64,000 nucleotides of DNA from Candidatus Krumholzibacteriia bacterium (GTDB lineage: Bacteria; Krumholzibacteriota; Krumholzibacteriia; LZORAL124-64-63), in contig JADGDU010000015.1 of assembly GCA_016744705.1 (NCBI GenBank), forward strand, positions 49,263-113,262, in the 5' to 3' direction. The position numbers and the translations under genes were made by a program. Shown piece after piece: positions 7,535 through 57,100 of this stretch. The stretch's first letter is position 1; each line of letters begins with the position of its first letter. Under the pieces are notes generated by a model. That model ran no database searches and was not told where the DNA came from. It saw only the letters and a list, made by a program, of their open reading frames with translations.

Positions 7535-7544
7535 AACTGTTATT

Positions 7545-7573: not shown

Positions 7574-7991
7574 ACATAGTCCTGAATGTCTGACACTACG
7601 CCCTGCCCTCCCAGCAATCAGAGGTGAACAGGGAGCCCGGAAGCCGCACAGAGCGTATCTCACGGTAGTCTGATTTATCCCCACGGCAGCAGATATCAGT
7701 TGTGGCCAGCACAGGGAAAGCTCAATACCTCAATTTGACCAACCTATAGGGCGACATCCTCCAATTGGAATTAAGTGTGCATTTTCCGAAACTAAGGGAA
7801 AGGTATTCCGTATAAGCCCCCTGTTGACGATGCTAGGGGGAAGCATTAGCTTGCATAAGTGAAAATTCCCAATCGTTCAGGTGCTGCTTTTGGCAGTGCC
7901 TATATTTTTTTGATTCCGGTACCCCAAGGGGGCGGGACCGGATACTTGTGATGTTTCGGTGTATTCCGGAATACCAACCATGGAGGCTTCA

Positions 7992-11955: not shown

Positions 11956-11990
11956 AGCCCGGGCCGTCATCAGACGGCCCGGGCTTTTCT
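11956..11990 (+). terminator. Rho-independent terminator after the M16 pair
   Basis: gagcccgggccgtc-atcag-acggcccgggct followed by tttct. Confidence 0.55.
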
Positions 11991-12061
11991 TGTGGTGGGC
12001 TTTCCCCTCTTGTGATACGATGGTTTCATATTTTGAGGGACTGTTCAAAGAGGGGGATTTC

Positions 12062-15000
12062 ATGAACAGGCTGATTTTCGTGTGTGCAATTGCTTTGGCA
12101 ATGATCGCCTTTGCTGTCCAGCCCATTCTGGCCCAAGACCAGTTGGGCATTTTTTTTGATGAAGAGGGGAACAGCAACTCCATCACCACCAGCACACCTT
12201 ACAGTCAGGTTTCGGCTTGGGTGCAACTGGTGGATCCCACGGCTGCGGAGGCTATCACCGGCTTCGAATTCCGGCTGGAAATTGGCACCGATGGCCCTGA
12301 TCCGATCCTTGTTTGGCAACTGCCTGTCATGGCCATCAACATTTTGGAAGAACCTTCATTTATGGTGGGTTTGGGTTCACCCCTGGCCATCGCGCCACGA
12401 GTGACCCTGGCAGAGTTGAATATTGTTGTGCCAGAGGCGGGGCAAACTGTTTGGCTCACTTTGCACCCTGTAGATACACCTTCCATGCTGGAGCCTGAGG
12501 GTTACGGTTATCCCGTTTGCCATCCTGTCTATTCTTTTGGTGAGGACAATGACTACCTGGCGATGCCTTCCAATTCCTCTTGCGAGTCTGCCCCGGTGGC
12601 TTCTCTTAATCCATCCGGACAGGCACCGCAATATCAGCTTTCGGAATTGCCTCCGGTGGTTGCCATCGGGTTGGAAAATGAAGAAAAGGTCATTGGTTCG
12701 CTTATTCTGACAAACCATGGCCCCGTCAGTTATTCCGGTGTGGTGTCGTCTACCGGGAGCACCCCTGTTCAAATTAATCTGGATGATCATTATTTCACAT
12801 CAGATTCCATCTCCTTCCAGGTTCCCGTGGGCGAAAGCATTCGCATCACTCCTAATTACAGCGGGGCCGGCTTCCTTGATGCCGTCTTGCAATTGGAAAT
12901 CTGTGGAGATGTGTGGGAGGTCCTGGTCTTAAGCGACGATGATTTGAAGCGCTGCGAGTGGAGTCCTGAGTTATTGGAATTTGGGGAAGTTTTCCAGGGC
13001 ACACCCGTATCTATGGAGGTTGAGTTAAAAAATACGGGTTATGTCGACTTGGTCATCCCCTACCAATTGTGGCAAGGACAGTTCAGGCTTGTGCGTAGGG
13101 ATCACACTATTGAGTTCTTGGATCCGGGAGAATCCTGCACTTATGAAGTGAATTTTTCTGCGGCCCAGATGGGAGACTCAGGCACAGTATTCAGCATTGA
13201 AAACCTGTGTTTTCTGACTGTAACTGCTACGGTCATACCTGGTCCTGCCGAATGCTCGGTCTCTGTCTCGACATTGGATTTCGGCGATTTTTATCTCGGG
13301 CAAGCTGCCGATAGCGAATCCTTTTCCATCCGAAATGTTGGCGGTGGTATTCTGGATGGATCCCTTGCTTTGATCGATACCACCGGGGCCTTTCAGCTCA
13401 GCAGTTGGTGTGAAACCAGCTATTCTCTGGTTCATTCCCAGCCCCATAACATTGGGGTTGAGTTTAACCCTTCAGCGGTAGGGAACTATAGCGCGGAAAT
13501 CGATTTGGGTTCTAGCTGCGGTAGTATTCAAATCACCGGAACGGCCATTGAAAGTGAACCTGAATGCCTTCTGTATGGCTACCCATATGCGGACGGGGTT
13601 CTGCCAATGCGCGCCATTCCCGTTGGTGGGGAGCGATTCGAATTTTTCCGGATCCGAAATGTTGGTGGCGGGATTTTGGCAGGTGAAGTCACCCTGGAAG
13701 ATACGACTGGGCTTTTTGAAATTCGTAGCAGTTTGGATTACTCCCTGGCCCACAACGGTTACATTTATGTCAGTGTGACATTCACTCCTCAGGAGGTTGG
13801 AGTCGTCTCAACAATTTTGCACACCGGGTCCATTTGTGGAGATGTCTTGGTGGTTGGTGAGGGGCTGGAGTCTTATGAAGACTGTTATTCCAGAATGTAT
13901 GCCAGGGAGTTCAACCGAGTGGCGGTGGGTGATACGGCGTATACTTCCGTATTGATTTACAATATCGGTTATACCGAATTGCATGGCGACTTCACGGTGG
14001 ATGGGGACAGTTTCGAAATGGCAAATCCCGGACCGTTTAGTTTGCCGGTCAATGGCAGTCTCTATGAATCTCTTCTGTTCATACCCCAAGCTGTTGGGGA
14101 GTTTGATGCTACTGTTTCCACAGGGCTTGACAGTTGCCCCGGCCATTGGGATGTGACGGGTTTGGCTGTTCCCGCGGGATCGGATCGCCTGGGGTTCTAC
14201 ATGGATCCGGAAGGCACAACCAATATCCTGGATACCTCCACACCCAAGGTTCGGGAAACAGTTTATGTTGTTTTAAAAAATCCCAGTGTGGGAGAATCAT
14301 TGGACAGTTGGTACCTCAACCATTGGACCAATGGCCCCGCCCTGACCATGGACGATTGGAGCACCTCTTTGCCTGGGCAGATCGAAGGTTCCAGTTATTC
14401 CAAGCGTTTTGAGGCCGATACACCGGTGCTCTTTTCGGAAACCATGGTGTTGGCGGAATTCTCTCTGTTAGTTCATGATTATACCGAGGCCAGCAAGGTA
14501 TCCATGGGATATGCCTGCTACTATCATGAAGGGCCGTTCTCCAATCATGTGAGAATTAACGATCCGGGCGACCTCTATATCAATTTCGACAAAAGCATGT
14601 TGAGTAACCTTCCGGCCACACCTTTGGCTGAACTCACCGGCAGCGCCGTGCAAATGACCTGGCCCTGTTCCCACTCCAATTTTGAAGGCTTCCATGTGTA
14701 CCGGCGCCTCGAAGGCGAGGTGGCGGAAAAGATGACCACGGACCCGATTTCCTGCCAAGAGGGGGTTGCCAGGTACGAAGACAAAGGCTGGGTTGCTGCA
14801 TGGGGCCGTGCATTTTATTCAGTTACAGCAGTGCATCAGGGCAAAGAGGGGCTGCCAAGCGAAGAAGTGGTGGTGGAATTTTCTCCTCAGGAAGACGAAA
14901 GCGCCCTTCCCGAACGCACTCGTTTGCTGGCCATCTATCCCAATCCCTTCAACCCGGCCGCTCACATCTCTTTCGAATTGGATCAGCCCGGCCTGGTGCA

Positions 15001-15190
15001 AATTCAAATCTACGATGTGGGAGGACGCTTGGTCCGCAGCCTGACAAACCGGCAGTTTGAGGCTGGTCAGTCTGAAGAAATCTGGAATGGACGGGATGAC
15101 GCAGGAAGGTCTGTGCCCAGCAATGTGTATTATGCCAGGATGAGGGCAGGAGCCGTAGTGCAGATGCAGAAAATGACGCTGTTGAAATAG
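12062..15190 (+). CDS. Large secreted T9SS cargo protein with repeated choice-of-anchor-D-like domains and C-terminal T9SS sorting domain
   Basis: Signal peptide MNRLIFVCAIALAMIAFAVQPILAQ. Repeated 'IRNVGGGIL(D/A)G...TTG(A/L)F(Q/E)' modules. The C-terminus 'LLAIYPNPFNPAAHISFELDQPGLVQIQIYDVGGRLVRSL...' is a Por_secretion-tail type-A CTD. The N- and C-proximal segments are related (LGIFFDEEGNSNSITTSTP / LGFYMDPEGTTNILDTSTP). Confidence 0.75.
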   Translation: MNRLIFVCAIALAMIAFAVQPILAQDQLGIFFDEEGNSNSITTSTPYSQVSAWVQLVDPTAAEAITGFEFRLEIGTDGPDPILVWQLPVMAINILEEPSFMVGLGSPLAIAPRVTLAELNIVVPEAGQTVWLTLHPVDTPSMLEPEGYGYPVCHPVYSFGEDNDYLAMPSNSSCESAPVASLNPSGQAPQYQLSELPPVVAIGLENEEKVIGSLILTNHGPVSYSGVVSSTGSTPVQINLDDHYFTSDSISFQVPVGESIRITPNYSGAGFLDAVLQLEICGDVWEVLVLSDDDLKRCEWSPELLEFGEVFQGTPVSMEVELKNTGYVDLVIPYQLWQGQFRLVRRDHTIEFLDPGESCTYEVNFSAAQMGDSGTVFSIENLCFLTVTATVIPGPAECSVSVSTLDFGDFYLGQAADSESFSIRNVGGGILDGSLALIDTTGAFQLSSWCETSYSLVHSQPHNIGVEFNPSAVGNYSAEIDLGSSCGSIQITGTAIESEPECLLYGYPYADGVLPMRAIPVGGERFEFFRIRNVGGGILAGEVTLEDTTGLFEIRSSLDYSLAHNGYIYVSVTFTPQEVGVVSTILHTGSICGDVLVVGEGLESYEDCYSRMYAREFNRVAVGDTAYTSVLIYNIGYTELHGDFTVDGDSFEMANPGPFSLPVNGSLYESLLFIPQAVGEFDATVSTGLDSCPGHWDVTGLAVPAGSDRLGFYMDPEGTTNILDTSTPKVRETVYVVLKNPSVGESLDSWYLNHWTNGPALTMDDWSTSLPGQIEGSSYSKRFEADTPVLFSETMVLAEFSLLVHDYTEASKVSMGYACYYHEGPFSNHVRINDPGDLYINFDKSMLSNLPATPLAELTGSAVQMTWPCSHSNFEGFHVYRRLEGEVAEKMTTDPISCQEGVARYEDKGWVAAWGRAFYSVTAVHQGKEGLPSEEVVVEFSPQEDESALPERTRLLAIYPNPFNPAAHISFELDQPGLVQIQIYDVGGRLVRSLTNRQFEAGQSEEIWNGRDDAGRSVPSNVYYARMRAGAVVQMQKMTLLK

Positions 15191-19400: not shown

Positions 19401-19906
19401 ACAAGGAGTTGGGTCTGGCGCGGAACGAGAACCCATTGCAGGGTTCCTTCATCATCGAAGAACTGACCGACCTGGTGGAAGAAGCGGTGCTGACAGAATT
19501 TGCCAGCATCAGTGAGCGCGGCGGTGTGTTGGGGGCCATGGAACGCATGTACCAGCGCACGAAAATCCAGGAAGAATCCCTGCATTATGAGTCCCTGAAA
19601 CATTCGGGAGAGATGCCCATCATTGGGGTCAACACGTATCTTGATCCGGCTGGTTCACCGACCATCATTCCCAGTGAAGTGATCCGCTCCACGGAGACCG
19701 AGAAACAGTATTCCATTGAGTCGCTCAATGCCTTCCATGAGCGCAATGCCGGTCAGGCTTCGGAAGCATTGGCCAAGTTGCGGCAGGTTGCGGTGGAACA
19801 TGGCAATACTTTTGAAGCCATGATGGAGACTTCCAAAACTTGTTCCATGGGGCAAATATCCCGGGCTCTTTATGGAGTGGGCGGGCAATATCGCCGGAAT
19901 ATGTAG
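16496..19906 (+). CDS. icmF: Fused isobutyryl-CoA mutase IcmF (N-terminal B12-binding domain + MeaB-like G-protein + methylmalonyl-CoA-mutase-like catalytic domain)
   Basis: The N-terminus '[19 protein letters not shown]...' is a B12-binding DxHxxG-type domain. The P-loop '[17 protein letters not shown]' is MeaB/ArgK-like. The C-terminal ~550 aa carry mutase TIM-barrel motifs. The 1136-aa length fits IcmF. Confidence 0.8.
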
Positions 19907-27723: not shown

Positions 27724-28983
27724 GTGCTGGATCGTAAATATCTTCGTGAAAACCAGGAATTGGTCACCCGGGCCGTGGCTCTGAAAAACGAATCCGTGGA
27801 CATTGGTGCCTATTATGCCAAGGACACCGAACGCCGGGCAGCCCTGCAGGAGATGGAAACACTCCAGGCCGAGGCCAACAAGGCCAACAAAGCCATCAGC
27901 GAGAAAAAGAAGGCCGGAGAGGATGCCTCCGGTGCCATCGCAGCCATGAAAGAAGTTTCGGGAAAGGTCAAAATTCTGAAATCCCGCGCTTCCGAACTGG
28001 AGGCCGAAGTGGATGCCCTTTATATGTGCATTCCCAACATTCCTCACGAAAGTGCTCCCGAAGGTGGCGAAGAGAATAACGAAACTGTACGCACCTGGGG
28101 CGAACCGGTGGATCCCGATTTTGAAGTATTGCCCCATTGGGAAATTGGCGAAGATCTGAACATTTACCATCCGGAGCGCAGCAGCCGCATGAGTGGTCGG
28201 GGTTTCACTGTGCTCTCCGGTGGTGGTGCCCGTCTTGAGCGAGCCCTCATCAATTGGTTTCTGGATGTGCACATGGAGCAGGGTTACACCGAATTCAGCA
28301 TCCCCTTCCTGGCCAACCGCACGGCTCTCACTGGCACCGGCCAGTTGCCCAAGCTGGAAGATGACATGTATTTGGCCACAGAGGATGACCTCTTTCTTAT
28401 CCCCACAGCTGAAGTGACCATCACCAACATACACATGAAAGAGACTCTCCAGCTGGAAAGCATGCCCCGGCAGTACACCGCAGCCTCGGCCTGTTTCCGG
28501 CGGGAAGCGGGAGCTGCGGGCAAGGATACCCGGGGCCTGGTCCGGGTGCATCAATTCAACAAAGTTGAAATGGTGAAGTTTGTGGATCCCGAGACTTCCT
28601 GGGATGAACTGGAGAAACTGACCGCCGATGCCGAATACTTGCTGCAGCAACTGAAATTGCCTTACCGTGTGCTGAGCCTGGCCACGGGCGATCTCAGCTT
28701 TGCCGCCTGCAAATGTTATGACCTGGAAGTGTATTCCGCTGGCGTAAAGTCCTGGCTGGAAGTCTCCTCCTGCAGCAATTTCCTGGATTTCCAGGCCCGC
28801 CGTGCCGGAATCCGTTTTAAGGGTGATGGACGCAAGGGTTATGTGCACACCATCAACGGGTCTGGCCTGGCGCTGCCCCGTATTCTGGTGGCGATCATGG
28901 AGAATTACCAGACAGCGGATGGCCGCATCCGCATCCCCGAAGTTTTGGTGCCCTACATGGGCGGAGCGGAGTTCATCGAGTAG
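27724..28983 (+). CDS. serS: Seryl-tRNA synthetase
   Basis: The N-terminal coiled coil and class II motifs (FRREAGAAGKDTRGLVRVHQFNKVE; GSGLALPR) are present. The GTG at 27724 gives M-LDRKYLREN, aligning with the canonical MLDxxLLR. An in-frame ATG at 27682 is the alternative. Confidence 0.85.
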   Translation: MLDRKYLRENQELVTRAVALKNESVDIGAYYAKDTERRAALQEMETLQAEANKANKAISEKKKAGEDASGAIAAMKEVSGKVKILKSRASELEAEVDALYMCIPNIPHESAPEGGEENNETVRTWGEPVDPDFEVLPHWEIGEDLNIYHPERSSRMSGRGFTVLSGGGARLERALINWFLDVHMEQGYTEFSIPFLANRTALTGTGQLPKLEDDMYLATEDDLFLIPTAEVTITNIHMKETLQLESMPRQYTAASACFRREAGAAGKDTRGLVRVHQFNKVEMVKFVDPETSWDELEKLTADAEYLLQQLKLPYRVLSLATGDLSFAACKCYDLEVYSAGVKSWLEVSSCSNFLDFQARRAGIRFKGDGRKGYVHTINGSGLALPRILVAIMENYQTADGRIRIPEVLVPYMGGAEFIE

Positions 28984-28984
28984 G

Positions 28985-30232
28985 ATGCTGACCAAAATTT
29001 GGCAAACAGGAATTCCCTGGCTGCGCAAGCGGTACGTATTCAATATTTATCTGCTTCTGGGCAGCCTGAGCATTGTTGTGGCCACGACCATTTTCACATT
29101 CAAGGTTTCCAAAAGTGTCGAGCGCCAAAGTTTCCTCACCACCAAGCTTTTGTCTGGTGTGGCCAGCCGTTTGTTCTCTGCTGAAAATGTTGAAGATGTG
29201 CTACCGATCATTGCCATCATCAACGAGAATGAAGTGCCTTTCATTCTGACAGATAATGCTGGGCGGCCCTTCATGTGGAACCCGCCGGTGATCGGAATCC
29301 CTTTGCCCAACTACCAGATTTTGCTCACGGAAAATGTGAATAGCACCCGCAATCCGGTGATTCTGGAAATCCTATCTCTGGCTGCGAAATATGACATGGA
29401 GCAAGAACCGTTTGCCATCGTGGACGAAAATGGAGTCCGCAAGGGAACCCTGCATTATGGTCGTTCGGCGTTGAGCCAGCGGTTGCGCATCATGCCCTAT
29501 CTTGAACTGATGATCATGGCGTTGTTTTTCCTGCTGATCCTTTGGGCGCTGCAAAGCAAGAAGGACGCCCAACAACAGGCCCTGTTCGCCGGAATGGCCA
29601 AAGAAACAGCGCACCAGTTGGGCACTCCATTGACCTCGATCATGGGCTGGATTGCTTTGTTGGAAGACAAGGTGGGAAAAGATAAAGAAGTTATGGTGGA
29701 GCTGAACCGCGATGTGGACCGGCTGAGCATGATCTCTACCCGATTTGGCCAGATAGGCTCGTTGCCCAAGTTGCAGGATACCGACCTGAACGAACTGGTG
29801 GACGAGTCGGTGGAGTATTTTCAAAAACGTCTGCCCCATCACGGGGGCCGTGTGCAACTCAGGCGTGAAGGCCAGGCCAGCCAGTTGGTGAGCTTTAACC
29901 GGGACTTGATGGGCTGGGTTTTGGAGAACCTGATCCGCAACGGCATCGACGCTTTGGTGGATGGAAAAGGCACCATCACCGTGCGGGTGGAGGATCATCC
30001 AGCGGGTGGTTTGTTGATCTCAGTGGCCGATACGGGCAAGGGTATCCCGGCCCGGGTGGGGAACAAAATCTTTGAACCCGGTTTCACCACAAAGAAGCGT
30101 GGCTGGGGCATGGGACTGGCTCTGGTCAAACGCATCGTCACCGATTACCACAGCGGCCGCATCACCGTGGAGGCCACCAGTAGCCACGGCACAACTTTTC
30201 ACGTGGTTTTACCGCCGATGTTGGAACAATAA
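28985..30232 (+). CDS. Sensor histidine kinase (2 TM, small periplasmic loop; PorY-like)
   Basis: The ATG at 28985 is 1 nt after the serS stop. TM1 is YVFNIYLLLGSLSIVVATTIFTF. The H-box is 'ETAHQLGTPLTSIMGW'. HATPase G-boxes are 'TGKGIP...GWGMGLALV'. Confidence 0.75.
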   Translation: MLTKIWQTGIPWLRKRYVFNIYLLLGSLSIVVATTIFTFKVSKSVERQSFLTTKLLSGVASRLFSAENVEDVLPIIAIINENEVPFILTDNAGRPFMWNPPVIGIPLPNYQILLTENVNSTRNPVILEILSLAAKYDMEQEPFAIVDENGVRKGTLHYGRSALSQRLRIMPYLELMIMALFFLLILWALQSKKDAQQQALFAGMAKETAHQLGTPLTSIMGWIALLEDKVGKDKEVMVELNRDVDRLSMISTRFGQIGSLPKLQDTDLNELVDESVEYFQKRLPHHGGRVQLRREGQASQLVSFNRDLMGWVLENLIRNGIDALVDGKGTITVRVEDHPAGGLLISVADTGKGIPARVGNKIFEPGFTTKKRGWGMGLALVKRIVTDYHSGRITVEATSSHGTTFHVVLPPMLEQ

Positions 30233-30243
30233 AGGAGCCTGTT

Positions 30244-31809
30244 TTGGCGTATAAAATTTTATGGATCGATGATCATATAGAAGAGCTTCGCTCGCACACC
30301 ATGTACCTGGGTGAGAAGGGGTACGAGGTGGAAGGAGTGACCAACGGCATGGATGGCCTGGCCATGCTCCGGGAACAAAATTTCGAAGCCATTTTGTTGG
30401 ATGAAATGATGCCTGGTATGGGTGGATTGGAAACCCTGGAAGGCATCCGGAAGATCGATCCGAACATTCCGGTGATCATGGTCACCAAAAGCGAAGCCGA
30501 AGATTTGATGACCCGGGCCATCGGCAAGCGCATTGACGATTACCTGGTTAAGCCGGTCAGTCCGATCCAGGTGTTGTCTGCCCTGAAGCGCCAGGTGGAA
30601 GCGCGCAAGCTGACCGGTGAAGAAGTCACCCGCGACTACATGAGCAACTTCATGGCAGTGACCGACCGCATTGCCCTGGCCAAGAGCCCTGCCGATTGGG
30701 AGGGCATTTATTCCGATCTCGTCACCTGGGGCATGGACCTTTTTCAGTACAGTGATCATGGGTTGCTGGAGACCCAGGGTGAACAATTGATGGCCGCTAA
30801 TTTGGCCTTTGGTAAATATGTAAGGGAGAATTATCACAGTTGGATTCACGCTAACCCAGAAACATCCGGCAAGGATATCCCTCTGTTCAGCCCCCGTGTC
30901 TATGAAGAACTCATTGAGCCGGAAGTCCAGCGCAGCCGGCAGGTTTTCTGGATCACCATCGATTGCATGCGTTTGGATCAGGTGCGAATGATAGAGCCGC
31001 TTCTGGAACCCTATTTCCACATCAATCGCCAGCATTACTGGTCCATGCTGCCTACGGCCACGCCCTATGCACGCAATGCCTTGTTTGCTGGGATGTATCC
31101 CGAGGATATTGCCAAAAACTATCCCAAATGGTGGTTGGATGGGCATCACGAAGGCAGCCGCAATGCTTACGAAGGAGAACTGCTGAACGAGCAGCTCAAT
31201 CGTATTGGCAGCGCTGCTTCCGGCAGTTGTAAATATTATAAGATTGCCGATGAACGGGATGTGGATCCTTTGCACCGGAACCTGGGCAGCATGGGTGATA
31301 CGCGTCTGGTGGCTGCTGTTTATAACTTCCTTGATATCATGGCCCATGGCCGCAGTCAGAACCGGATTTTGAAAGAGCTGGCGCCAAATGAAGCGGCCTT
31401 CCGGACCCTCATGCGCACCTGGTTCGAACACTCGAACCTTTTTGATATTCTCAAGAGTTTGTCCCGGCGCGATTGCACGGTGATTTTAACCACCGACCAC
31501 GGGTCCATGTTTTGCCGCCGCAGCATGAAAATCAGGGGCAATCGCGATACCAGCAGTAACGTGCGCTACAAATTTGGCGACAACCTGGGCACCGACGATG
31601 AACGCATCCTGTTGATGAAAAAACCTGGTGATTTCCGTTTGCCGGCCCATTCTTCCATTGAGAATTACGCCGTCACTTCAGAGAATTTCTATTTGGTGTA
31701 TCCCACGAATTTCCACGAGTACGAACGCCTGTACCGAGACAGTTTCCAACATGGAGGCATCAGCGTCGAAGAGATGATCTGTCCCTTTGTGACCCTGAGG
31801 CCGAGGTGA
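30244..31809 (+). CDS. Response regulator with REC domain fused to PglZ (alkaline-phosphatase-superfamily) domain; PorX-like
   Basis: The REC domain is 'ILWIDDH...LLDEMMPGMGG...VIMVTKS' with the phospho-Asp in 'LLDEMMPG'. The C-terminal ~380 aa carry 'ITIDCMRLDQ' and 'LTTDHGS' metal-site motifs of PglZ. The 521-aa size is the same as P. gingivalis PorX. Confidence 0.7.
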   Translation: MAYKILWIDDHIEELRSHTMYLGEKGYEVEGVTNGMDGLAMLREQNFEAILLDEMMPGMGGLETLEGIRKIDPNIPVIMVTKSEAEDLMTRAIGKRIDDYLVKPVSPIQVLSALKRQVEARKLTGEEVTRDYMSNFMAVTDRIALAKSPADWEGIYSDLVTWGMDLFQYSDHGLLETQGEQLMAANLAFGKYVRENYHSWIHANPETSGKDIPLFSPRVYEELIEPEVQRSRQVFWITIDCMRLDQVRMIEPLLEPYFHINRQHYWSMLPTATPYARNALFAGMYPEDIAKNYPKWWLDGHHEGSRNAYEGELLNEQLNRIGSAASGSCKYYKIADERDVDPLHRNLGSMGDTRLVAAVYNFLDIMAHGRSQNRILKELAPNEAAFRTLMRTWFEHSNLFDILKSLSRRDCTVILTTDHGSMFCRRSMKIRGNRDTSSNVRYKFGDNLGTDDERILLMKKPGDFRLPAHSSIENYAVTSENFYLVYPTNFHEYERLYRDSFQHGGISVEEMICPFVTLRPR

Positions 31810-31816
31810 TTTGAGT

Positions 31817-32353
31817 ATGTTGCATGATCAGGATTTGCCTGCCGTTGATGATTTTCCTCTCTCCCTGAAAGTTAAGGGAGCCGAGATGACATTTGCCCTG
31901 GGCAAGGCAGTAGCCGAATTGCTTGAGGGTGGAGAAATCATCCTTCTGTACGGCCCCTTGGGAGCCGGGAAAACCTGTTTCAGCCAGGGACTCAGCTCGG
32001 GGCTGGCCGTGAAGGACGAAGTTGTTTCACCCACCTTCACTTTGGTCAATACCTACAGTGGCGGATTCCTGACGGTGCATCACCTGGATTTTTATCGGGT
32101 AGAGCCGGATCACGATTTGGACGACATTGGCGTGCCTTATATTTTGGAGGAAGTCTTCAATAGGGAGGCCGTGGTCCTAATCGAATGGCCGGAACCCATC
32201 CTGCAAAGTATCGGGCAAGATGAACCGCGGGTAGAGTTATTCGCTCTGCCTGGAGAAGCCGATGACGAGCGCATCTGGTATTTGCGGGGTGTCCCGGAAG
32301 TGCCGGTGCCCTGGGCCAATCTCTTTTACAATTTTTCCACAACCACGGAGTAG
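31817..32353 (+). CDS. tsaE: tRNA t6A37 threonylcarbamoyladenosine biosynthesis protein TsaE
   Basis: P-loop 'LYGPLGAGKT' and 'SPTFTLVNTY...LDFYR' motifs. A TTG at 31811 is the alternative start. Confidence 0.8.
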   Translation: MLHDQDLPAVDDFPLSLKVKGAEMTFALGKAVAELLEGGEIILLYGPLGAGKTCFSQGLSSGLAVKDEVVSPTFTLVNTYSGGFLTVHHLDFYRVEPDHDLDDIGVPYILEEVFNREAVVLIEWPEPILQSIGQDEPRVELFALPGEADDERIWYLRGVPEVPVPWANLFYNFSTTTE

Positions 32354-32356
32354 ATT

Positions 32357-33148
32357 TTGCTCACACTGGCTTTTGACACCGCAACTCCATGGGGGCGCTT
32401 CGCCCTGGCTGAAGATGGGCAACTTCTGCAGTACCGTCCTTTGAATGTCATGGGCAGTTACGCCGATGCCCTCTTGAAAATTGTGCAGGAAATTTTGGCA
32501 GACAGCGGCCGCAGCAAAGGGGAGCTGGGTGGCATTGGAGTGACCGTGGGCCCGGGAAGTTTCACCGGACTGCGCATCGGCGTGGCTACGGCCAAAGGCT
32601 TGGCCTACGGATTGGATGTTCCCTTGGTTGGGGTCAGCACTCTGGAAGCTATGGCCGCATCGCTGTTGGAGGACCATCCCAGCGTGGAGTACGCCGTACC
32701 CTGTTTGGATGCCCGGCGGCAGCAGGTGTTTTCTGCCGTGTACAAGCGCAAGGGACAATGGGTGGAAAAAATCGCTGATCCCGAACCAATGTTAGCCGAT
32801 CTCTGGTGGGAAAAAATTCTGACTCTATTGCCCGATCCTGAAGTGGCCGTCTATGGTGGCGATGGCACGGCGGTTTTGCTGGGACAGGGAGACGATCTGC
32901 GTCCTGAACTCGCTGGCACCGGGAAGCCTCGGTTGCGGCCCTGGACTGCGGCCCATCCTCCCACTGCCCGAACTTTGGCCTGCGCCATGGGGGTGGCTTC
33001 AGAACAGCTGCCCACCACTCATCCATTCTTGTTGGTGCCCCAATATTTGCGGGCCAGTGATGCAGAATTGAACAAGAATATGGATCTGACCCCCCGCACA
33101 CCCAGCGACGATGTGAGCATTCATTCCAGCCGCCGGCCCACTTCATGA
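32357..33148 (+). CDS. tsaB: tRNA t6A37 biosynthesis protein TsaB (YeaZ)
   Basis: LAFDTAT...GIGVTVGPGSFTGLRIGVATAKGLAYGLDVPLVGVSTLEA. Confidence 0.8.
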   Translation: MLTLAFDTATPWGRFALAEDGQLLQYRPLNVMGSYADALLKIVQEILADSGRSKGELGGIGVTVGPGSFTGLRIGVATAKGLAYGLDVPLVGVSTLEAMAASLLEDHPSVEYAVPCLDARRQQVFSAVYKRKGQWVEKIADPEPMLADLWWEKILTLLPDPEVAVYGGDGTAVLLGQGDDLRPELAGTGKPRLRPWTAAHPPTARTLACAMGVASEQLPTTHPFLLVPQYLRASDAELNKNMDLTPRTPSDDVSIHSSRRPTS

Positions 33149-33630
33149 ATGATTCGTTGGTGATTCGACCGGGGAATCCTGGGGACCTGGCAATGATCAT
33201 CGCCATGGAGAAAGTGGCCTTCAAAGACCCCTGGAATGCAGAAGCCCTTTACAGTGAATTGCTGACCGATCACATGCGGCTGCCACTGGTGGCTGAGCTG
33301 GGTGGGCACCTGTGCGGCTATCTCATGTCCTGGCGAGTGGTGGATCAGCTGCACATCCTGAACATTGCCACGGATCCCAATTATCTGCGCCAGGGAGTGG
33401 GGACCGCTTTGCTGGTGGCTGCCGCCCGGTTGGCCACCGAAGGAGGCCAGGTGGAAATGACGCTTGAAGTGAGGCGCAGCAACACCGGGGCCAGAGGTTT
33501 TTACAAGCATCATCATTTCGCTGAAACAGGCCTCAGGCGGGGGTATTATCAGGAAGATGGGGAAGATGCCATCATCATGACAGCGGCCTGCTCTGATATC
33601 CTGCGGGGGAACCAAATTCGCCCTACATGA
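33145..33630 (+). CDS. rimI: Ribosomal-protein-alanine N-acetyltransferase (GNAT)
   Basis: The GNAT motif is 'LRQGVGTALL'. It sits in tsaE-tsaB-rimI synteny. Its start overlaps the tsaB stop. Confidence 0.75.
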   Translation: MNDSLVIRPGNPGDLAMIIAMEKVAFKDPWNAEALYSELLTDHMRLPLVAELGGHLCGYLMSWRVVDQLHILNIATDPNYLRQGVGTALLVAAARLATEGGQVEMTLEVRRSNTGARGFYKHHHFAETGLRRGYYQEDGEDAIIMTAACSDILRGNQIRPT

Positions 33631-33678: not shown

Positions 33679-34644
33679 ATGCGAATTTTTTCCGGCGGCC
33701 CAATCGGGGTCCCGGTGGACTGCGGCGGGGTGCACCTGCTGCCGATATTCAAGGAGGACGCTTTGTCCTGGTTGACACAGGCTGCCAAGGGTATCAAAGC
33801 CCTGGCCAACCAAAAAAAAGACATCCCGGATAATCTGTGGCGCAAATGCCCCAGTTGTTCGGAAGTGCTGTACCATCGCGAGTTGGATCGCAACATGTGG
33901 GTGTGCGGCAGTTGTGGGCACCATTTGACCTTCAGTACGGAGCAGTACATCAAATTGCTCTTTGATGAGGGCACCTGGCAGGAGACCCACACCGGACTCA
34001 CCAGTGTTGATGCCTTGGATTTTAAAGACTCCAAGCGTTACAAAGATCGCATCAAAGCCAGCCGGCATAAGACGGGCAAAGAGGACGCCGTGATCACCGG
34101 CCGAGGCCAGATTGGGCTGATCCCCGTTTCGGTGGCCATCATGGACTTCACCTTCATGGGCGGGAGCATGGGATCCGTGGTGGGCGAAAAAATTGCTCGC
34201 GCACTACTGGACAGTTTGAAGCACCGGGAGTCGGCTATCATTTTGAGCCGCAGCGGTGGAGCGCGTATGCAGGAAAGCTTGCTCTCTTTGATGCAAATGG
34301 CCAAAACCAGCGCAGTGCTGGCCCGATTGCGCAAAGAAGGCATCCCCTTTGTCAGCTTGCTGACCAATCCCACCACCGGTGGAGTGACGGCCAGTTATGC
34401 GACCCTTGGTGATATCAACGTGGCTGAACCTGGGGCCCTGATCGGCTTTGCCGGCCCCCGGGTTATCAAGCAAACCATCGGTGGCGATTTGCCGGAAGGA
34501 TTCCAATCTTCAGAATTCCTCTTGGAACACGGCATGGTGGATATCATCAGCGAACGTAAAGACCTGAAGGAAACTCTGGAGCGAACTCTGCACTGGTTCG
34601 TCGATGGGCGGGATGTGTCGGTTCGGCGCCCGCCTCGGGGCTGA
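33679..34644 (+). CDS. accD: Acetyl-CoA carboxylase carboxyltransferase beta subunit
   Basis: The zinc ribbon 'CPSCSEVLY...CGSCGHH' is followed by a carboxyltransferase domain (GGSMGSVVGEKIAR...GGARMQESLLSLMQMAK). The N-terminal start is uncertain. Confidence 0.85.
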   Translation: MRIFSGGPIGVPVDCGGVHLLPIFKEDALSWLTQAAKGIKALANQKKDIPDNLWRKCPSCSEVLYHRELDRNMWVCGSCGHHLTFSTEQYIKLLFDEGTWQETHTGLTSVDALDFKDSKRYKDRIKASRHKTGKEDAVITGRGQIGLIPVSVAIMDFTFMGGSMGSVVGEKIARALLDSLKHRESAIILSRSGGARMQESLLSLMQMAKTSAVLARLRKEGIPFVSLLTNPTTGGVTASYATLGDINVAEPGALIGFAGPRVIKQTIGGDLPEGFQSSEFLLEHGMVDIISERKDLKETLERTLHWFVDGRDVSVRRPPRG

Positions 34645-34650
34645 TAGGCC

Positions 34651-36111
34651 ATGTCCCTCGGCAATCCCCGTCCCGAAAATTCTCAATCCCACCCCGGCGA
34701 ACCCGGGGTGGGTGTTGATTTGGCCCCCCCTTTCACGGCTGCAGACGAACCCACCCGCTGGCTTTTTAGCCTGAACCGTTTTGGTATCCGGCCTGGCCTG
34801 ATGCGCATTCAAGGTTTGCTGGGTGAACTCGGCAATCCGGAAAATAAATTGCGCACACTGGTGGTGGCCGGCACCAACGGCAAAGGCAGCACCACTCGCA
34901 TCCTGGCGCACTTGTTGCAAGAGGCGGGAAACAAGGTGGTCACGTTCACCAGCCCTCATCTGCTGGGAGTGCATGAGCGCATTTGCATCAACGATGTGCC
35001 TATCGGGGCCAAAGATTTTGCCCGCAGGGTGGAGGCTATCAAGCCCCTGACCGAGAAACACGAAGCCAGTTGGTTTGAAACCCTCACTGCTTTGGCGGTG
35101 CAGGTTGCCGTGGATGAATGTGCCGATTTCTTCTGCTGCGAAACGGGCCTTGGCGGGCGCCTCGATGCCACCAATGCCATCCCGGCGGAAGCCATCCTGC
35201 TGACTACTGTGGGGCTTGATCACGAATCCATCCTGGGCAATAGTCTGGAGGAGATAGCCACCGAAAAGCTGGGCCTGTTGAAAGACGGCACGCCCTTGTT
35301 CTGCGGTGTGGATGAAGAGTTGCGTTTCCAGGTTTTTGAGACCTCAGTCCGGGCGGGCAGTCCTGTGTTTTTCCTGGACGAGTTGGCCCGCTGGCAATCC
35401 CATTCATCGGAGGCCATGGCTGAAGACTGGGATCTGACTCTCCGCAATCATCATTTTCCCAATCTGCCAGATCCTGGAGCGGCCAGCATGCGCCGCAATG
35501 TGGCTCTGGCTCTGCTGACTCTGACGGAATTGGAAACCCTGAAGGGCGAACGTCTGCTGCCGGAAAATCTTTCTGATACATTGGGGAATCTTTTTCTGCC
35601 GGGAAGGTACCAACAGCTGTTGCGCCAGCCGGACTTCATTTTTGATACGGCACACAACGAGCAGGCTCTGACCGGGGCTTTGGCCCACTTTCGGCGCCGG
35701 AAAATTTCCGGACGGCGCATTGTCTTTTTTGGCTCCATGCACAACAAGGAACTGGAAAAGCTTTCGGGGGAAATCATACAGGGTTTCGATTTGATTCTGG
35801 CTGTGCCGGTTTCCATCCCGCGCTCTCGCAACCCTGAAGAATTGCTTTCTTTGCTGGAGTCATGGGAGATCCCGGCCCAACCGTTGGCCGCCGGTTGGAA
35901 CGCTCCAACCAAAGGATTGGTGGCCCCGGATATGAAAGCTGCTTTGGAGTGGCTGGCCAAACAGGTCCACAAGGATGACCGCGTTTTGGTCACAGGTAGT
36001 TGTTTCATGGTGGCCGAGGTTTTGCATAAGATGGGTTTTGAGACTCTGGAGATGACTCGAGAGGAAGTGGATGCCGGGCCGGTTTTGGCCCGACTGATTC
36101 AACCGGCCTAA
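34651..36111 (+). CDS. folC: Bifunctional folylpolyglutamate synthase / dihydrofolate synthase
   Basis: Mur-ligase P-loop 'VAGTNGKGST'. It lies in accD-folC synteny as in E. coli. Confidence 0.85.
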   Translation: MSLGNPRPENSQSHPGEPGVGVDLAPPFTAADEPTRWLFSLNRFGIRPGLMRIQGLLGELGNPENKLRTLVVAGTNGKGSTTRILAHLLQEAGNKVVTFTSPHLLGVHERICINDVPIGAKDFARRVEAIKPLTEKHEASWFETLTALAVQVAVDECADFFCCETGLGGRLDATNAIPAEAILLTTVGLDHESILGNSLEEIATEKLGLLKDGTPLFCGVDEELRFQVFETSVRAGSPVFFLDELARWQSHSSEAMAEDWDLTLRNHHFPNLPDPGAASMRRNVALALLTLTELETLKGERLLPENLSDTLGNLFLPGRYQQLLRQPDFIFDTAHNEQALTGALAHFRRRKISGRRIVFFGSMHNKELEKLSGEIIQGFDLILAVPVSIPRSRNPEELLSLLESWEIPAQPLAAGWNAPTKGLVAPDMKAALEWLAKQVHKDDRVLVTGSCFMVAEVLHKMGFETLEMTREEVDAGPVLARLIQPA

Positions 36112-54148: not shown

Positions 54149-57100
54149 ATGCGGAAAGTGCTGTTTTTGGTTTGGGTGATTGTTCTGACGGTGGGGTCTG
54201 CCTCCGGGGCCACCGCTGGATGGATCAGTTTCGACAAACAGGAAATGGCATTCCCCCAGATCCAGGCCAGGCGACAATCTGAGAGTCTCACTGTCGTGGA
54301 TATCACCATGAGCGGCCTGGAAAGCAATGTCGTGATGGTCCAGGGGCAACCCCATGATCAGATTCGCATTCCCGGGCATTGGTTCACTCTGGAAGCAGGT
54401 CAGCCGGAACTTCCTTTCATCACCAGCAGCCTGGTCATTGCCGACAGTGGCAATCCGGTGGTGCGGGTGCTCAATAGCACCTGGCGGGAAATTTCTGCTC
54501 ATCCGGTTCTCCCATCCAAGGGTTCTATTCTGCGCACGGAAGATCCGGCCACAGTGCCTTACGCTTTTGGTGCTGTTTATCAAAGCAGGGATGTCTTTCC
54601 CGCATCTGAGGTCCAACTGAACGAACCATACATCATGCGTGACGTGCGAGGCGTGAGTTTGCGCATCAACGCCGTGCGCTGGGATGTGGAGCGGGGCGTC
54701 TTGCTGGCCTTGGAAAGCATGACCCTGGAAGTGGAAACTTCCGGTGCGGGGGGAATCAACTCTCGGCAGGGAAAAATGCAGAGTGGCATCGACACCCAGT
54801 TCGCCCAACTTTATAATCAGGCTTTTGACAATTACGAGAACCCCGCCAAATACAACATGGTGGCCGTTGATGGCCGCATGCTGGTAGTGTGCCACGATTC
54901 CTTTTTGGGCACCATTGATCCCTTTGTGCAATGGAAGCGTTCCACCGGCATAGATGTGCAGGTCATCAGCACTGGTAGTGTAGGGGGAACCTCCCTGGGT
55001 ATCCAGAGCGCCATCGATTCTCTGTATGCCGAACCAGAAGGATTGACTTATGTGATTCTAGTGGGAGATCAAGCTCAAGTGCCCTCCTACACCGGAACCT
55101 TCGAAGGCGCTGATGACGATACTCGCTATGGCAATATCGAAGGTGATGACCTTTATCCAGACCTCTTCGTGAGCCGCATCTCGGGCTCCAACCCGGTGGA
55201 TATTCAAACCCAGATCAACAAATTTATTCGTTATGAACGGGATCCTGATGCTGGTGCCGATTGGTATCATCTCGGGGCGGTGTTAGCCTCCAGCCAGGGC
55301 GACCCCTCGGACTCTGAGCGTGCCGGTTGGTTGCGCGATGACATGTTGAATTACACCTTCACTCAGGTGCACGAAGTTTTTCAGCCCGAAGGTGATACCG
55401 CTGATATTACCGACGCCGTCAATGGCGGAGTCAGTCTGATCAATTATCTCGGCCATGGCTCGGGCACGTCCTGGACCAATCCCCACTTTACGCAGGCCGA
55501 TATCAATGCCCTGAGCAATGGATGGCAGAACCCCTGGATTTTGGACGTGAGCTGTTCCAACGGAGACTTCTCCACCGACGAATGTTTTGCCGAAGCCTGG
55601 ATGCGTGCCGGTGACCCGGCCCAGCCCCAGGGAGCTTTGGCCACTTACAGCGCATCCACCACAACGCCCTGGATTCCCCCCTGTGTGATGCAGGCTGAAG
55701 CAGTGGATCTGATGGTGGCGAACCAGGCCACGGTGTTGGGCTCTCTGTATTTTCACGGCATCATGAAGGTGATGGACGTATACCCGGGCAATAGCCAACT
55801 GGTGGAACAGTACAATGTTTTTGGCGATTGTTCGTTGCAGATTCGCACCAATACACCAGTGGTGCCGGCGATGCAGTATGACGATGTACTGGCCCTGGAG
55901 GCCACGGTGTTTCCCGTGGATACAGGTCTTGAAAATTGTCGGGTGGCTTTGTACAGCGGGCAGCAATTGCACGGTGTGGGCGTAACCGATGCGCAGGGTC
56001 ATGTGGACATTTCCCTGACCAACCCAGTGACTGTTCCCGGCCCGGTGAGTATGACGGTAACAGGGTACAATGTATTGACCCAGGTCCTCACTCTGCAAGC
56101 GGAAGTCCCCGTGGTGGTGGACATTCAGCCGTCCTCAATTCCCGTGGGTCAGACTACGGATATAACGGTGACTTTGTCAGATTCACCAGCCCTGGCTTCC
56201 CTGGAAAATGTGACGGTTACGGTGGAAGGTTTTGGTGTGCAAGCTGTGCAGGGGCTCACCGGTGTTGACGGTGTGGCTACCATCAGTGTGACTCCTGAAT
56301 TTGGCGAAAATTTGACTGTGCGGGGCGTGGAGTTCGGCGCCGGATATGACATGTTCAGCGTAGATTTGGGCGTCAGCGGTGCCTTGGATCTGACCCAGGC
56401 AAATATAGTTGCTGAAGTGGCTGCCATCGGTATGATCGATACCCTGACTCCGGATTGGGAAGGCACCATTACTGGTACCAGCGATGTGGCTGATTTCGAC
56501 ATTAAAATCAAGGGGCCCGGCCTGGATGTTCTGGCCAGGGGATCTGGATACTCCCTGGTGCAAAATGTGACTCCGCTGGGCACGGGTGTGGTTTATGCCA
56601 CCTTGCTGAAAACCGGTTACAACATCTATCAATCGGAAATCCAAGTGATTCCTGCCTATGGAACCCTCGGGGGATCGATCACGGCTTCTGGTGGAGCAAC
56701 TCTTGATGGAGTGCGCGTTTTTGGATTCCACACGGGAGATGATCCCCAGGGAGAACCAGTCTTTGATCTGGTCAGCGATGCCACCGGCGAATTCAGCAAT
56801 CCGGTCCAACTGCCTTCCGGAAGTTACGATTTGTATGCCCGTAAATACGGGTATTTGGATTATGCCGAAACCTTTGTGCTGGAGCACGGGGCCAATGACC
56901 ATGATGTGGTCATGGACCTCTCTCCAGTGGGAGTTCTTACCGGACAAATTTCAGCTCTTGAAGGTGGTGCGGCCATCAATGCCACCATCCAGGTTATCCG
57001 CCTGGATAACAACGACCAAATGGCCTTGGTGATGACCGACGAACTGGGGCGATACACCTGTCCGGAATTGCCTTTTTATGACTACCGGATGATTGTGACC

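What the first reader, a model, noticed from the sequence alone, without database searches (positions are those of the whole stretch)
28985..31809. PorY-like kinase and PorX-type (REC+PglZ) regulator encoded as an adjacent pair, co-transcribed with serS and tsaE-tsaB-rimI
In Porphyromonas the T9SS regulators PorX and PorY are orphan genes at separate loci. Here a two-TM histidine kinase (28985-30232) is followed 11 nt later by a 521-aa REC + PglZ/alkaline-phosphatase-like regulator (ITIDCMRLDQ, TTDHGS motifs). The window also encodes three T9SS-CTD cargo proteins. This supports a T9SS regulatory module in this lineage. The linked arrangement gives direct genetic evidence for the cognate pairing that had to be shown biochemically in Porphyromonas. 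The tight packing between serS and the t6A genes (1-nt and 1-7-nt gaps) is also unusual.
Basis: partly seen in the sequence, partly recalled or inferred. Interest (0 to 1): 0.6.

Follow-up and report, generated by a model that had tools for sequence, protein, structure and literature searches.

The report
Linked PorY-PorX pair beside TsaE
A membrane sensor kinase and the secretion-system regulator PorX lie far apart in the gum pathogen Porphyromonas, but here they sit side by side in an operon conserved across several bacterial phyla, which supports the disputed idea that they work as a pair and points to the next gene, tsaE, as a further partner.

Summary
Coordinates 28985-30232 encode a 415-aa two-TM histidine kinase. 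After an 11-nt gap, 30244-31809 encodes a 521-aa REC+PglZ regulator. serS ends 1 nt upstream, and tsaE-tsaB-rimI follow with gaps of 1, 3 and -4 nt.

The regulator is a true PorX orthologue. It scores 618 bits against NCBIfam equivalog NF052313 (cutoff 300). All eight phospho-acceptor and zinc/catalytic residues are present.

The kinase belongs to a distinct family with an invariant H-box, AKETAHQLGTP, and a shared periplasmic domain. This family lies directly upstream of porX in Krumholzibacteria, Eisenbacteria, Latescibacteria, Zixibacteria, some Ignavibacteriales and Poribacteria. In Bacteroidota it occurs as an orphan of about 390 aa with the published PorY architecture. I could not obtain the P. 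gingivalis PorY sequence, so that orthology is indirect.

The packing is not an oddity. serS-HK-porX-tsaE-tsaB-rimI-accD-folC is an old conserved block. The porX-tsaE junction is its most conserved part (54 of 75 species loci, including Bacteroidales). That extends across phyla a 2026 report that TsaE/UbK1 phosphorylates PorX in P. gingivalis.

T9SS core genes were not seen in the window; only three cargo proteins with the T9SS sorting domain were. This is a known system in a new lineage, with an informative gene order.

The parts
27727..28983 (+). serS (seryl-tRNA synthetase), first gene of the block. The ORF opens at 27682; the likely start is the GTG at 27727 (VLDRKYL...).
   Evidence: TIGR00414 467.9 bits against a 301.65 cutoff. 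Pfam Seryl_tRNA_N and tRNA-synt_2b. serS lies upstream of the HK in the related loci L001-L003, L007, L019, L027, L028, L031, L032 and L048.
28985..30232 (+). PorY-family sensor histidine kinase, 415 aa.
   Evidence: Pfam HATPase_c and HisKA. It is a member of the PorX-linked HK family with the invariant H-box AKETAHQLGTP. It shares 40% identity over 257 aa with an orphan HK of Rhodocytophaga rosea.
29033..29110 (+). HK transmembrane segment 1 (aa 17-42).
   Evidence: Hydropathy scan. Helix 14-59 in the AlphaFold model.
29111..29482 (+). HK periplasmic sensor domain (aa 43-166), probably PAS/PDC-like. It carries the family motifs VPFILTDNAGRPFMW and HYG...LRIMPY.
29483..29563 (+). HK transmembrane segment 2 (aa 167-193). 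It runs straight into the DHp helix; there is no HAMP domain.
   Evidence: Hydropathy. A continuous helix 162-230 in the model.
29597..29629 (+). H-box AKETAHQLGTP. The phospho-accepting His210 is the codon at 29612-29614.
   Evidence: Invariant in the 22 linked HKs from seven lineages and in the Krumholzibacterial homologues.
29912..30214 (+). HK catalytic ATP-binding domain (HATPase_c, aa 310-410).
   Evidence: Pfam PF02518, 77.5 bits.
30244..31809 (+). PorX orthologue, 521 aa: REC domain, helical bundle and PglZ/alkaline-phosphatase-superfamily domain.
   Evidence: NF052313 T9SS_RR_PorX equivalog 618.4 bits against a 300 cutoff, full length. Full-length PDB matches to F. johnsoniae PorX (8ted, E 1e-124) and P. 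gingivalis PorX (7pv7, E 1e-117).
30256..30585 (+). PorX receiver domain (aa 5-114). The phospho-acceptor Asp53 is the codon at 30400-30402.
   Evidence: Pfam Response_reg 83.6 bits. D53 aligns with Fj D54 and Pg D58 and is invariant in 85 sequences.
30940..31806 (+). PorX PglZ/APS phosphodiesterase domain, with D240, T273 (nucleophile), D364, H368, D418, H419 and H503.
   Evidence: Pfam PglZ 67.2 bits over aa 233-428. All seven residues align with the Zn1/Zn2 ligands of FjPorX listed in PMC11320123 and are invariant in 85 sequences.
31811..32353 (+). tsaE (YjeE/UbK family ATPase/kinase), starting 1 nt after the porX stop.
   Evidence: TIGR00150 99.9 bits against a 60.1 cutoff. The Walker A (GPLGAGKT), SPT, HLDFYR and EW motifs can be read in the translation. 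tsaE lies directly downstream of porX in 54 of 75 species loci.
32357..33148 (+). tsaB (t6A complex dimerisation subunit).
   Evidence: TIGR03725 137.8 bits against a 69.3 cutoff.
33145..33630 (+). rimI (ribosomal protein S18 alanine acetyltransferase). It overlaps tsaB by 4 nt.
   Evidence: TIGR01575 111 bits against an 86.4 cutoff.
33679..36111 (+). accD (33679-34644) and folC (34651-36111), the conserved tail of the block.
   Evidence: Pfam Carboxyl_trans with Zn_ribbon_ACC, and Mur_ligase. The same order is seen in L001, L002, L007, L019, L027, L028 and L031.
11990..15190 (+). Context: 1066-aa protein with a T9SS type-A C-terminal sorting domain (borderline score).
   Evidence: TIGR04183 23.1 bits against a cutoff of 23. 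Pfam Por_Secre_tail 23.3 bits, below its cutoff of 27.
54149..63858 (+). Context: two tandem C25 (gingipain-family) peptidases of about 1570 aa with T9SS type-A sorting domains (54149-58837 and 59098-63858).
   Evidence: Pfam Peptidase_C25 171 and 174 bits. TIGR04183 32.4 and 23.2 bits. They are not PorU: NF033707 scores about 52 bits against a 420 cutoff.

Best explanation
The locus encodes a cognate two-component pair that is the linked form of the PorY-PorX system.

Proposed mechanism. Every step below is inferred here; none was measured:
1. The kinase is an inner-membrane dimer with a PAS/PDC-like sensor domain of about 125 aa in the periplasm, no HAMP domain, and a DHp helix continuous with TM2.
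2. A periplasmic signal switches on autophosphorylation at His210. In P. gingivalis that signal is reported to be the C-terminal sorting domain of a T9SS cargo protein, PorA.
3. The phosphoryl group passes to Asp53 of PorX.
4. Phosphorylation, together with zinc binding in the PglZ domain, drives PorX dimerisation.
5. By analogy with P. gingivalis and F. johnsoniae, PorX then acts through protein contacts (PorL, an ECF sigma factor) and through its phosphodiesterase activity on oligonucleotides to tune type IX secretion.

Operon context. The pair is transcribed in one compact unit with serS upstream and tsaE-tsaB-rimI downstream. This gene order is old. It is shared by Krumholzibacteria, Eisenbacteria, Latescibacteria, Zixibacteria and some Ignavibacteriales. 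In Bacteroidota the kinase gene moved elsewhere and became the 'orphan' porY, while tsaE stayed glued to porX. TsaE/UbK is therefore a likely second partner or input of PorX.
For: Shown by sequence:
- PorX identity: NF052313 at 618 bits against a 300 cutoff. Full-length matches to both solved PorX proteins. All eight functional residues are invariant (residue list from PMC11320123).
- Kinase features: two TM segments, His210 and an intact CA domain.
- Gene gaps of 1, 11, 1, 3 and -4 nt.

Comparative evidence:
- The whole block is conserved in Krumholzibacterial contigs at 61-76% PorX identity.
- I surveyed 80 loci, each from a different species. A kinase of the same family lies directly upstream of porX in 16 of 71 loci, and in 3 more with an insertion. 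tsaE lies directly downstream in 54 of 75.
- All ten PorX proteins sampled from ten lineages pass the equivalog cutoff, at 559-808 bits.
- The linked kinases share an invariant H-box and sensor motifs.

Link to PorY:
- A metagenome scan for the H-box found about 70 orphan members and 5 linked ones.
- The orphans are 385-400 aa with the His at about 185-197. Their sensors are hit by an HMM built only from linked kinases, in 50 of 59 cases.
- One orphan's homologues are named as Cytophagales and Chitinophagales proteins. They stand alone in complete genomes.
- Published PgPorY features fit the family: 395 aa, TM 14-36 and 149-173, H193, periplasmic region A35-R149, and S241 and S266. In the family the IGS serine is at His+48 in 54 of 106 members. 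Ser occurs at both His+48 and His+73 in 25 of 106.

TsaE link:
- UbK1 lies downstream of porX in 81 P. gingivalis strains and phosphorylates PorX in vitro (PMC13241743).
Against: - No phosphotransfer, transcript or secretion data exist for this organism.
- No T9SS core gene (porK/L/M/N, sprA/sov, porV, porU) is in the 64-kb window. Two of the three sorting-domain hits are exactly at threshold.
- In P. gingivalis the porX and porY mutants overlap little in phenotype, and some authors doubt the pairing (PMC9757075; PMC11320123).
- The UbK1 target residue Tyr79 is not conserved. It is Asn74 here and the column is variable across the alignment.
- Most PorX-bearing lineages in the sample lack the adjacent kinase, so linkage is not required for function.
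- The housekeeping neighbours could reflect inherited gene order rather than function.
Confidence: 0.75

Rival explanations
1. The pair is a cognate two-component system, but its main job here is not control of type IX secretion. PorX would act as a phosphorylation- and zinc-gated oligonucleotide phosphodiesterase tied to translation or tRNA-modification state. That would explain why it sits among serS, tsaE, tsaB and rimI. Control of T9SS would be a later or secondary role seen in Bacteroidota.
For: The conserved neighbours are all translation-related. PorX cleaves cyclic and linear oligoadenylates and may act on nanoRNAs (PMC9757075). Saran et al. conclude that the UbK1-PorX link is separable from gingipain secretion. 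PorX orthologues with the linked kinase occur in Poribacteria, a group not known for T9SS. No T9SS core gene is in the window.
Against: The literature reports that PorX co-occurs with T9SS throughout Bacteroidota (PMC9757075). The window holds three candidate T9SS cargo proteins. tsaE-tsaB-rimI is a widespread housekeeping operon on its own (my own knowledge), so the neighbourhood may say little about PorX output.
Confidence: 0.2
2. The adjacent kinase is a real partner of PorX, but it is not the orthologue of P. gingivalis PorY. PorY would belong to another kinase family, recruited in Bacteroidales after the ancestral partner was lost from the locus.
For: I never had the PGN_2001 sequence. 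NCBIfam gave no PorY-specific hit for the kinase or for its sensor region. The weak phenotypic overlap of porX and porY mutants would fit a secondary recruitment.
Against: Orphan members of this family are common in Bacteroidota. A high-GC group occurs in gut metagenomes (L100 from a sloth, L131 from a human). Their length, TM positions, His position and Ser at His+48 and His+73 match the published PgPorY numbers. porY was originally found as a gene shared by T9SS-bearing Bacteroidetes.
Confidence: 0.15
3. The adjacency is only inherited gene order. The kinase signals to another regulator, and PorX is activated by acetyl phosphate, zinc or TsaE.
For: Acetyl phosphate and zinc alone dimerise PorX in vitro (PMC11320123). 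Most PorX loci in the sample have no kinase next to them.
Against: An 11-nt gap (overlapping genes in L001 and L002) is kept across lineages whose PorX is only 40-46% identical. The H-box is invariant. In L033 and L045 the kinase-porX-tsaE trio persists without tsaB or rimI. No other regulator gene lies next to the kinase.
Confidence: 0.07

Closest known systems
[quoted passage not shown]
   Same: PorX here has the same three-part architecture and all catalytic residues. It shares 36% identity with PgPorX over the full length. The kinase has the same layout as PorY: two TM segments, a periplasmic loop of about 115-125 aa, no HAMP domain, the His about 20 residues after TM2, and about 200 residues from the His to the C-terminus.
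   Different: The two genes are 11 nt apart here. In P. gingivalis they are about 1000 genes apart. Direct sequence comparison with PorY was not possible. No SigP, PorL or PorA partner was identified in the window.
PorX of Flavobacterium johnsoniae (PDB 8ted and related entries)
   Same: This is the best solved match, E 1e-124 and full length. D54, D237, T271, D360, H364, D414, H415 and H499 are all conserved.
   Different: 37% identity. In F. johnsoniae PorX affects enzyme secretion but not gliding. Nothing is known about the output here.
UbK1 (TsaE/YjeE family) - PorX link in P. gingivalis (Saran et al., J Biol Chem 2026, PMC13241743)
   Same: tsaE lies directly downstream of porX on the same strand. 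The TsaE here has the Walker A, SPT, HxDxYR and EW motifs.
   Different: The paper examined only 81 strains of one species. Here the junction is seen in 54 of 75 species loci across many phyla. The mapped phosphosite Tyr79 is Asn74 here and is variable elsewhere. Here tsaE is still followed by tsaB and rimI.
tsaE-tsaB-rimI housekeeping operon (t6A tRNA modification)
   Same: Same three genes in the same order, each passing its equivalog cutoff.
   Different: In this superphylum the operon is preceded by a signalling pair. In Bacteroidia tsaB and rimI have left while tsaE stays with porX.
BREX-3 PglZ phosphatase
   Same: It shares the PglZ/alkaline-phosphatase fold. NF033449 gives a partial hit of 69.8 bits.
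   Different: The score is far below the 250 cutoff. There are no BREX genes nearby. PorX has an N-terminal receiver domain and is about 520 aa rather than 600 or more.

Membership tests
PorX (T9SS response regulator signal transducer) | Full-length match to the curated equivalog model NF052313 above its cutoff | tested here: met
   618.4 bits against a cutoff of 300, covering aa 4-521 of the protein and positions 2-513 of the 513-position model.
PorX (T9SS response regulator signal transducer) | Architecture of REC, helical bundle and PglZ/APS domain, 500-530 aa | tested here: met
   521 aa. Pfam Response_reg at aa 5-114 and PglZ at aa 233-428. Collinear alignment to PDB 8ted and 7pv7.
PorX (T9SS response regulator signal transducer) | Phospho-acceptor Asp, catalytic Thr and the six zinc ligands | tested here: met
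   D53, T273, D240, D364, H368, D418, H419 and H503 are all present, and all are invariant in 85 aligned sequences. The residue list comes from PMC11320123.
PorX (T9SS response regulator signal transducer) | Occurs in a genome with T9SS core genes and acts on the T9SS (binds PorL or SigP) | not testable with these tools
   Only 64 kb is available and it holds no core gene. Three proteins reach the type-A sorting-domain cutoff, which is indirect support.
PorY (T9SS sensor histidine kinase) | Two TM segments flanking a periplasmic loop of about 115 aa, no HAMP domain, HisKA plus HATPase_c, about 395 aa, His about 20 residues after TM2 | tested here: met
   TM at aa 17-42 and 167-193, loop of about 124 aa, His210, 205 residues from the His to the C-terminus, 415 aa in total. 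PgPorY has TM 14-36 and 149-173, H193 and 395 aa.
PorY (T9SS sensor histidine kinase) | Sequence orthology to P. gingivalis PGN_2001 | tested here: inconclusive
   The sequence could not be obtained. Indirect evidence: the same family occurs as orphans in Bacteroidota. Those orphans fit the published PgPorY residue numbers H193, S241, S266 and R149.
PorY (T9SS sensor histidine kinase) | Phosphotransfer to PorX; activation by a cargo C-terminal domain (PorA) | not testable with these tools
   These are biochemical properties. Here there is only adjacency conserved across at least six lineages.
TsaE / UbK (YjeE family) | Equivalog model plus the Walker A, SPT/S, HxDxYR and EW motifs | tested here: met
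   TIGR00150 99.9 bits against a 60.1 cutoff. GPLGAGKT, SPTF, HLDFYR and IEWPE can be read in the translation. The motif list comes from PMC13241743.
TsaE / UbK (YjeE family) | UbK1 target tyrosine in the PorX receiver domain (PgPorX Tyr79) | tested here: not met
   The aligned residue is Asn74. The commonest residues in the column are N, S, H, G, A, Q, E and L; Tyr is not among them. The paper itself says the site is not broadly conserved.
T9SS type-A cargo | C-terminal sorting domain TIGR04183 at or above cutoff | tested here: met
   32.4, 23.2 and 23.1 bits against a cutoff of 23. Two are marginal, and Pfam PF18962 is below its cutoff of 27 for those it hit (23.3 bits for 11990-15190 and 23 bits for 54149-58837; it gave no hit for 59098-63858).
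PorU (T9SS sortase) | Match to NF033707 above its cutoff, considered for the two C25 peptidases | tested here: not met
   51.5 and 52.4 bits against a 420 cutoff, and the match covers only the C-terminal sorting domain.

The most novel reading that the evidence does not exclude
Kinase-PorX-TsaE is an ancestral three-gene signalling cassette of the FCB superphylum and its relatives. TsaE/UbK would be a conserved functional partner of PorX, either as a second kinase acting at a site other than Tyr79 or as a reporter of t6A/translation state. The 'orphan' PorX and PorY of Bacteroidota would be the broken remnant of this cassette. PorX would then join an envelope signal (through PorY) and a translation-state signal (through TsaE) before acting on secretion.
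Probability: 0.3. Interest if true: 0.7.

Novelty: new member of a known kind. Interest (0 to 1): 0.5.

Why it matters
Whether PorY is the real kinase of PorX is disputed. The two genes are about 1000 genes apart in P. gingivalis, and their mutants behave differently.

A kinase of one well-defined family that stays glued to porX across several phyla gives the kind of genetic evidence that P. gingivalis cannot. It also turns the dispute into a one-step test: does PGN_2001 belong to this family?

The work also widens a 2026 observation, tsaE/ubK1 next to porX in one species, into a pattern across the superphylum. A neighbourhood conserved within one species says little. One conserved across phyla is hard to explain without selection.

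Finally, the survey supplies linked kinase-PorX pairs from many lineages. These could be used for co-variation analysis and for in vitro phosphotransfer work with proteins that may be easier to handle.

Tried and rejected
- **PgPorY sequence.** I could not obtain it. NCBIfam shows no PorY model hit for the kinase or for its sensor region alone. The PDB holds no PorY; the best hit is ZraS at 78 bits. A full-text search for the H-box peptide found nothing. The Ito 2025 paper has no supplements held.
- **AlphaFold database search.** A Foldseek search against afdb50 could have named a Porphyromonas hit, but that library was not installed.
- **PorU.** I considered that the two C25 peptidases were PorU, a T9SS core gene. 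Rejected at about 52 bits against a 420 cutoff.
- **PorV.** I considered that the 394-aa ORF at 52654-53838 was PorV-like. Rejected: it is an acidic lipoprotein with no family hit.
- **Promoter/terminator scan.** It gave no more sites than shuffled sequence and does not model Bacteroidota-type promoters.
- **Literature on Krumholzibacteria and T9SS.** Nothing found.
- **Iterated sensor HMM.** The first version included the TM segments and could have drifted. I rebuilt it from the periplasmic part of the linked kinases only before using it as evidence.


Full report
**Observation**

The ORFs are exactly as described.
- The kinase runs 28985-30232 (415 aa).
- The regulator runs 30244-31809 (521 aa, TTG start). 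An AAGGAG site lies upstream of it.
- serS ends at 28983, 1 nt before the kinase start.
- tsaE starts 1 nt after the porX stop, or 7 nt after it if the in-frame ATG is used.
- tsaB follows after 3 nt, and rimI overlaps tsaB by 4 nt.

Pfam finds HATPase_c and a just-subthreshold HisKA in the kinase, and Response_reg plus PglZ in the regulator. Hydropathy gives two TM segments at aa 17-42 and 167-193. The promoter/terminator scan is no better than shuffled sequence, so co-transcription rests on the gaps alone.

**The regulator is PorX**

- It scores 618 bits against the NCBIfam equivalog NF052313, 'T9SS response regulator signal transducer PorX' (cutoff 300), over its full length.
- It matches the solved PorX proteins of F. 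johnsoniae (E 1e-124) and P. gingivalis (E 1e-117) end to end.
- The phospho-acceptor Asp, the catalytic Thr and six zinc ligands defined in PMC11320123 correspond to D53, T273, D240, D364, H368, D418, H419 and H503. All eight are invariant in 85 aligned sequences.

**The lineage**

The closest named homologues are Candidatus Krumholzibacteriia MAG proteins at 65-74% identity. Two related contigs carry the same block: pyrF-pyrE on the opposite strand, then serS-HK-porX-tsaE-tsaB-rimI-accD-folC-ROK-lptD.

**How widespread is the arrangement?**

I built a PorX alignment from distant representatives. A scan of one genome per species with it returned 80 loci. They span Eisenbacteria, Ignavibacteria, Zixibacteria, KSB1, Latescibacteria, Poribacteria, Calditrichota, Gemmatimonadota, Cloacimonadota, Marinimicrobia, Kapabacteria, Rhodothermales, Balneolaceae, Bacteroidales, Flavobacteriales and others. 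Ten PorX proteins sampled from ten lineages all pass the equivalog cutoff, at 559-808 bits.

I searched the six-frame ORFs of these loci with HMMs seeded from the window's proteins.
- tsaE lies directly downstream of porX on the same strand in 54 of 75 loci with enough flank.
- Three more loci have one small gene in between.
- A kinase of the same family lies directly upstream in 16 of 71 loci, and in three more with an insertion.
- The full order serS-HK-porX-tsaE-tsaB-rimI-accD-folC recurs in Eisenbacteria, Latescibacteria, Zixibacteria and two Ignavibacteriales.
- In Bacteroidales, Flavobacteriales and Balneolaceae only porX-tsaE survives. tsaB and rimI are gone from the locus.

So the packing is not unusual. 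It is an old block, and its most persistent joint is porX-tsaE.

**The tsaE link in the literature**

TsaE belongs to the YjeE/UbK family. A 2026 paper (PMC13241743) found ubK1 downstream of porX in 81 P. gingivalis strains. It used that neighbourhood as the reason to test PorX, and showed that UbK1 phosphorylates PorX at Tyr79 in vitro. This is the only paper in the library that mentions both PorX and TsaE.

The TsaE here has all four family motifs and passes TIGR00150. Tyr79 is not conserved: it is Asn74 here and the column is variable. If the link is functional across phyla, it does not run through that residue.

**The kinase family**

The 22 linked kinases align over their full length.
- The H-box AKETAHQLGTP is invariant.
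- The DHp region is 37-51% identical to the window outside Krumholzibacteria.
- The periplasmic part is only 8-27% identical, but it carries shared motifs: FP.I.TD..G.P..W, and YG...LR..P before TM2.
- AlphaFold models are moderate (pLDDT 73.5 for the full length and 69 for the sensor).

**Is it PorY?**

I could not get the PGN_2001 sequence, so I approached the question from the other side. A degenerate DNA pattern for the H-box was scanned against metagenome contigs and gave 120 loci.
- About 70 of the kinases with at least 1 kb of downstream flank have no PorX next to them.
- Five have PorX directly downstream, with serS upstream and tsaE beyond.
- The orphans are 385-400 aa, with the His at about 185-197 and 196-209 residues after it.
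- A periplasmic-domain HMM built only from the linked kinases hits 50 of 59 orphan sensors at E<1e-3. It hits only three other ORFs among 6462.
- One orphan (L083; 395 aa, H193) has homologues named as Rhodocytophaga rosea, Adhaeribacter aquaticus, Eisenibacter elegans, Ferruginibacter and Cytophagales proteins.
- In two of those genomes, one complete and one a 4.8-Mb scaffold, the gene stands alone with no regulator beside it.
- The window kinase is 40% identical to the Rhodocytophaga protein over TM2, DHp and CA (213 bits). The best generic kinase matches score 78 bits in the PDB and 131 bits in NCBIfam.

Published PgPorY numbers fit the family:
- 395 aa, TM 14-36 and 149-173, H193.
- Periplasmic region A35-R149.
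- Gain-of-function substitutions at S241 and S266.
- In the family the serine of the IGS motif is at His+48 in 54 of 106 members. Ser is the commonest residue at His+73. Both are Ser in 25 of 106 members.

I rate the probability that PgPorY belongs to this family at about 0.85. The direct comparison still has to be done.

**Why the pairing matters**

Kadowaki et al. and Vincent et al. showed PorY-PorX binding and phosphotransfer. Later structural papers point to the weak overlap of the mutant phenotypes and suggest another kinase, acetyl phosphate or zinc as the activator. Ito et al. 2025 report that the sorting domain of the cargo protein PorA binds the PorY periplasmic region. Conserved operonic linkage in sister phyla is independent support for the pairing.

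**T9SS context**

Three proteins in the window reach the TIGR04183 cutoff. Two of them are large C25 peptidases. They are not PorU. No core T9SS gene was found in the window, and no literature links Krumholzibacteria to T9SS.

**Verdict**

This is a known system in a new lineage. Its value lies in the gene order: it supports the PorY-PorX pairing, shows the orphan state in Bacteroidota to be derived, and extends the PorX-TsaE link from one species to many phyla.

Noticed in passing
L024, L053, L054, L056 (Poribacteria MAGs; PorX at about 7001-8550 in each): Four Poribacteria genomes, one of them a 6.15-Mb chromosome-level assembly, carry a PorX orthologue (631 bits on NF052313 for L024). The family kinase lies directly upstream, but no tsaE lies downstream. 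[quoted passage not shown]
   Followed up: partly
window 54149-58837 and 59098-63858; also 52654-53838: Two tandem paralogous C25 (gingipain-family) peptidases of about 1570 aa. Each has a propeptide, CarboxypepD_reg repeats, a P-domain and a T9SS sorting domain. They are preceded by an acidic 394-aa lipoprotein with no family match.
   Followed up: partly
L077 and L079 (Rhodothermales), directly downstream of PorX: In these two loci folC follows porX directly, about 50 nt away, in place of tsaE-tsaB-rimI-accD. It looks as if the middle of the ancestral block was deleted.
   Followed up: no
L033 and L045 (Latescibacterota): The kinase-porX-tsaE trio persists without tsaB or rimI. The kinase ORFs are longer here (607-619 aa, stop to stop), with extra sensor-region matches.
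   Followed up: no
L019, L031, L032, L196, 3.6-9 kb downstream of PorX: After folC these loci carry one or two further histidine-kinase genes. In L196 each is followed by a receiver-domain gene. This suggests a cluster of signalling genes at the end of the block.
   Followed up: no
window 47010-48113 and 48152-49327: A second signalling pair: a 367-aa protein with only a HisKA match, followed by a 391-aa hybrid kinase (HisKA, HATPase_c and a receiver domain). A Fur-family regulator lies at 50300-50818.
   Followed up: no
window 16496-19906: A 1136-aa fusion of a B12-binding domain, a MeaB-type GTPase and methylmalonyl-CoA mutase. The layout resembles IcmF.
   Followed up: no
window 37113-41066: A 1317-aa LptD-like outer-membrane protein (LptD_2, 160.8 bits) ends the conserved block after a ROK-family gene. 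The same pair follows folC in L001 and L002.
   Followed up: no
window 41942-43060: A multihaem cytochrome (Cytochrome_C554 and MtrC/MtrF-like matches). A long ORF on the opposite strand overlaps it and is probably spurious.
   Followed up: no
L100, L114, L124, L131, L142, L166, L174, L188, L197 (metagenome contigs, GC about 0.61): A tight group of orphan family kinases on high-GC contigs, including human-gut and sloth-gut samples. They may be Alistipes-like Bacteroidales. They would be the orphans in hand that are closest to Porphyromonas.
   Followed up: partly
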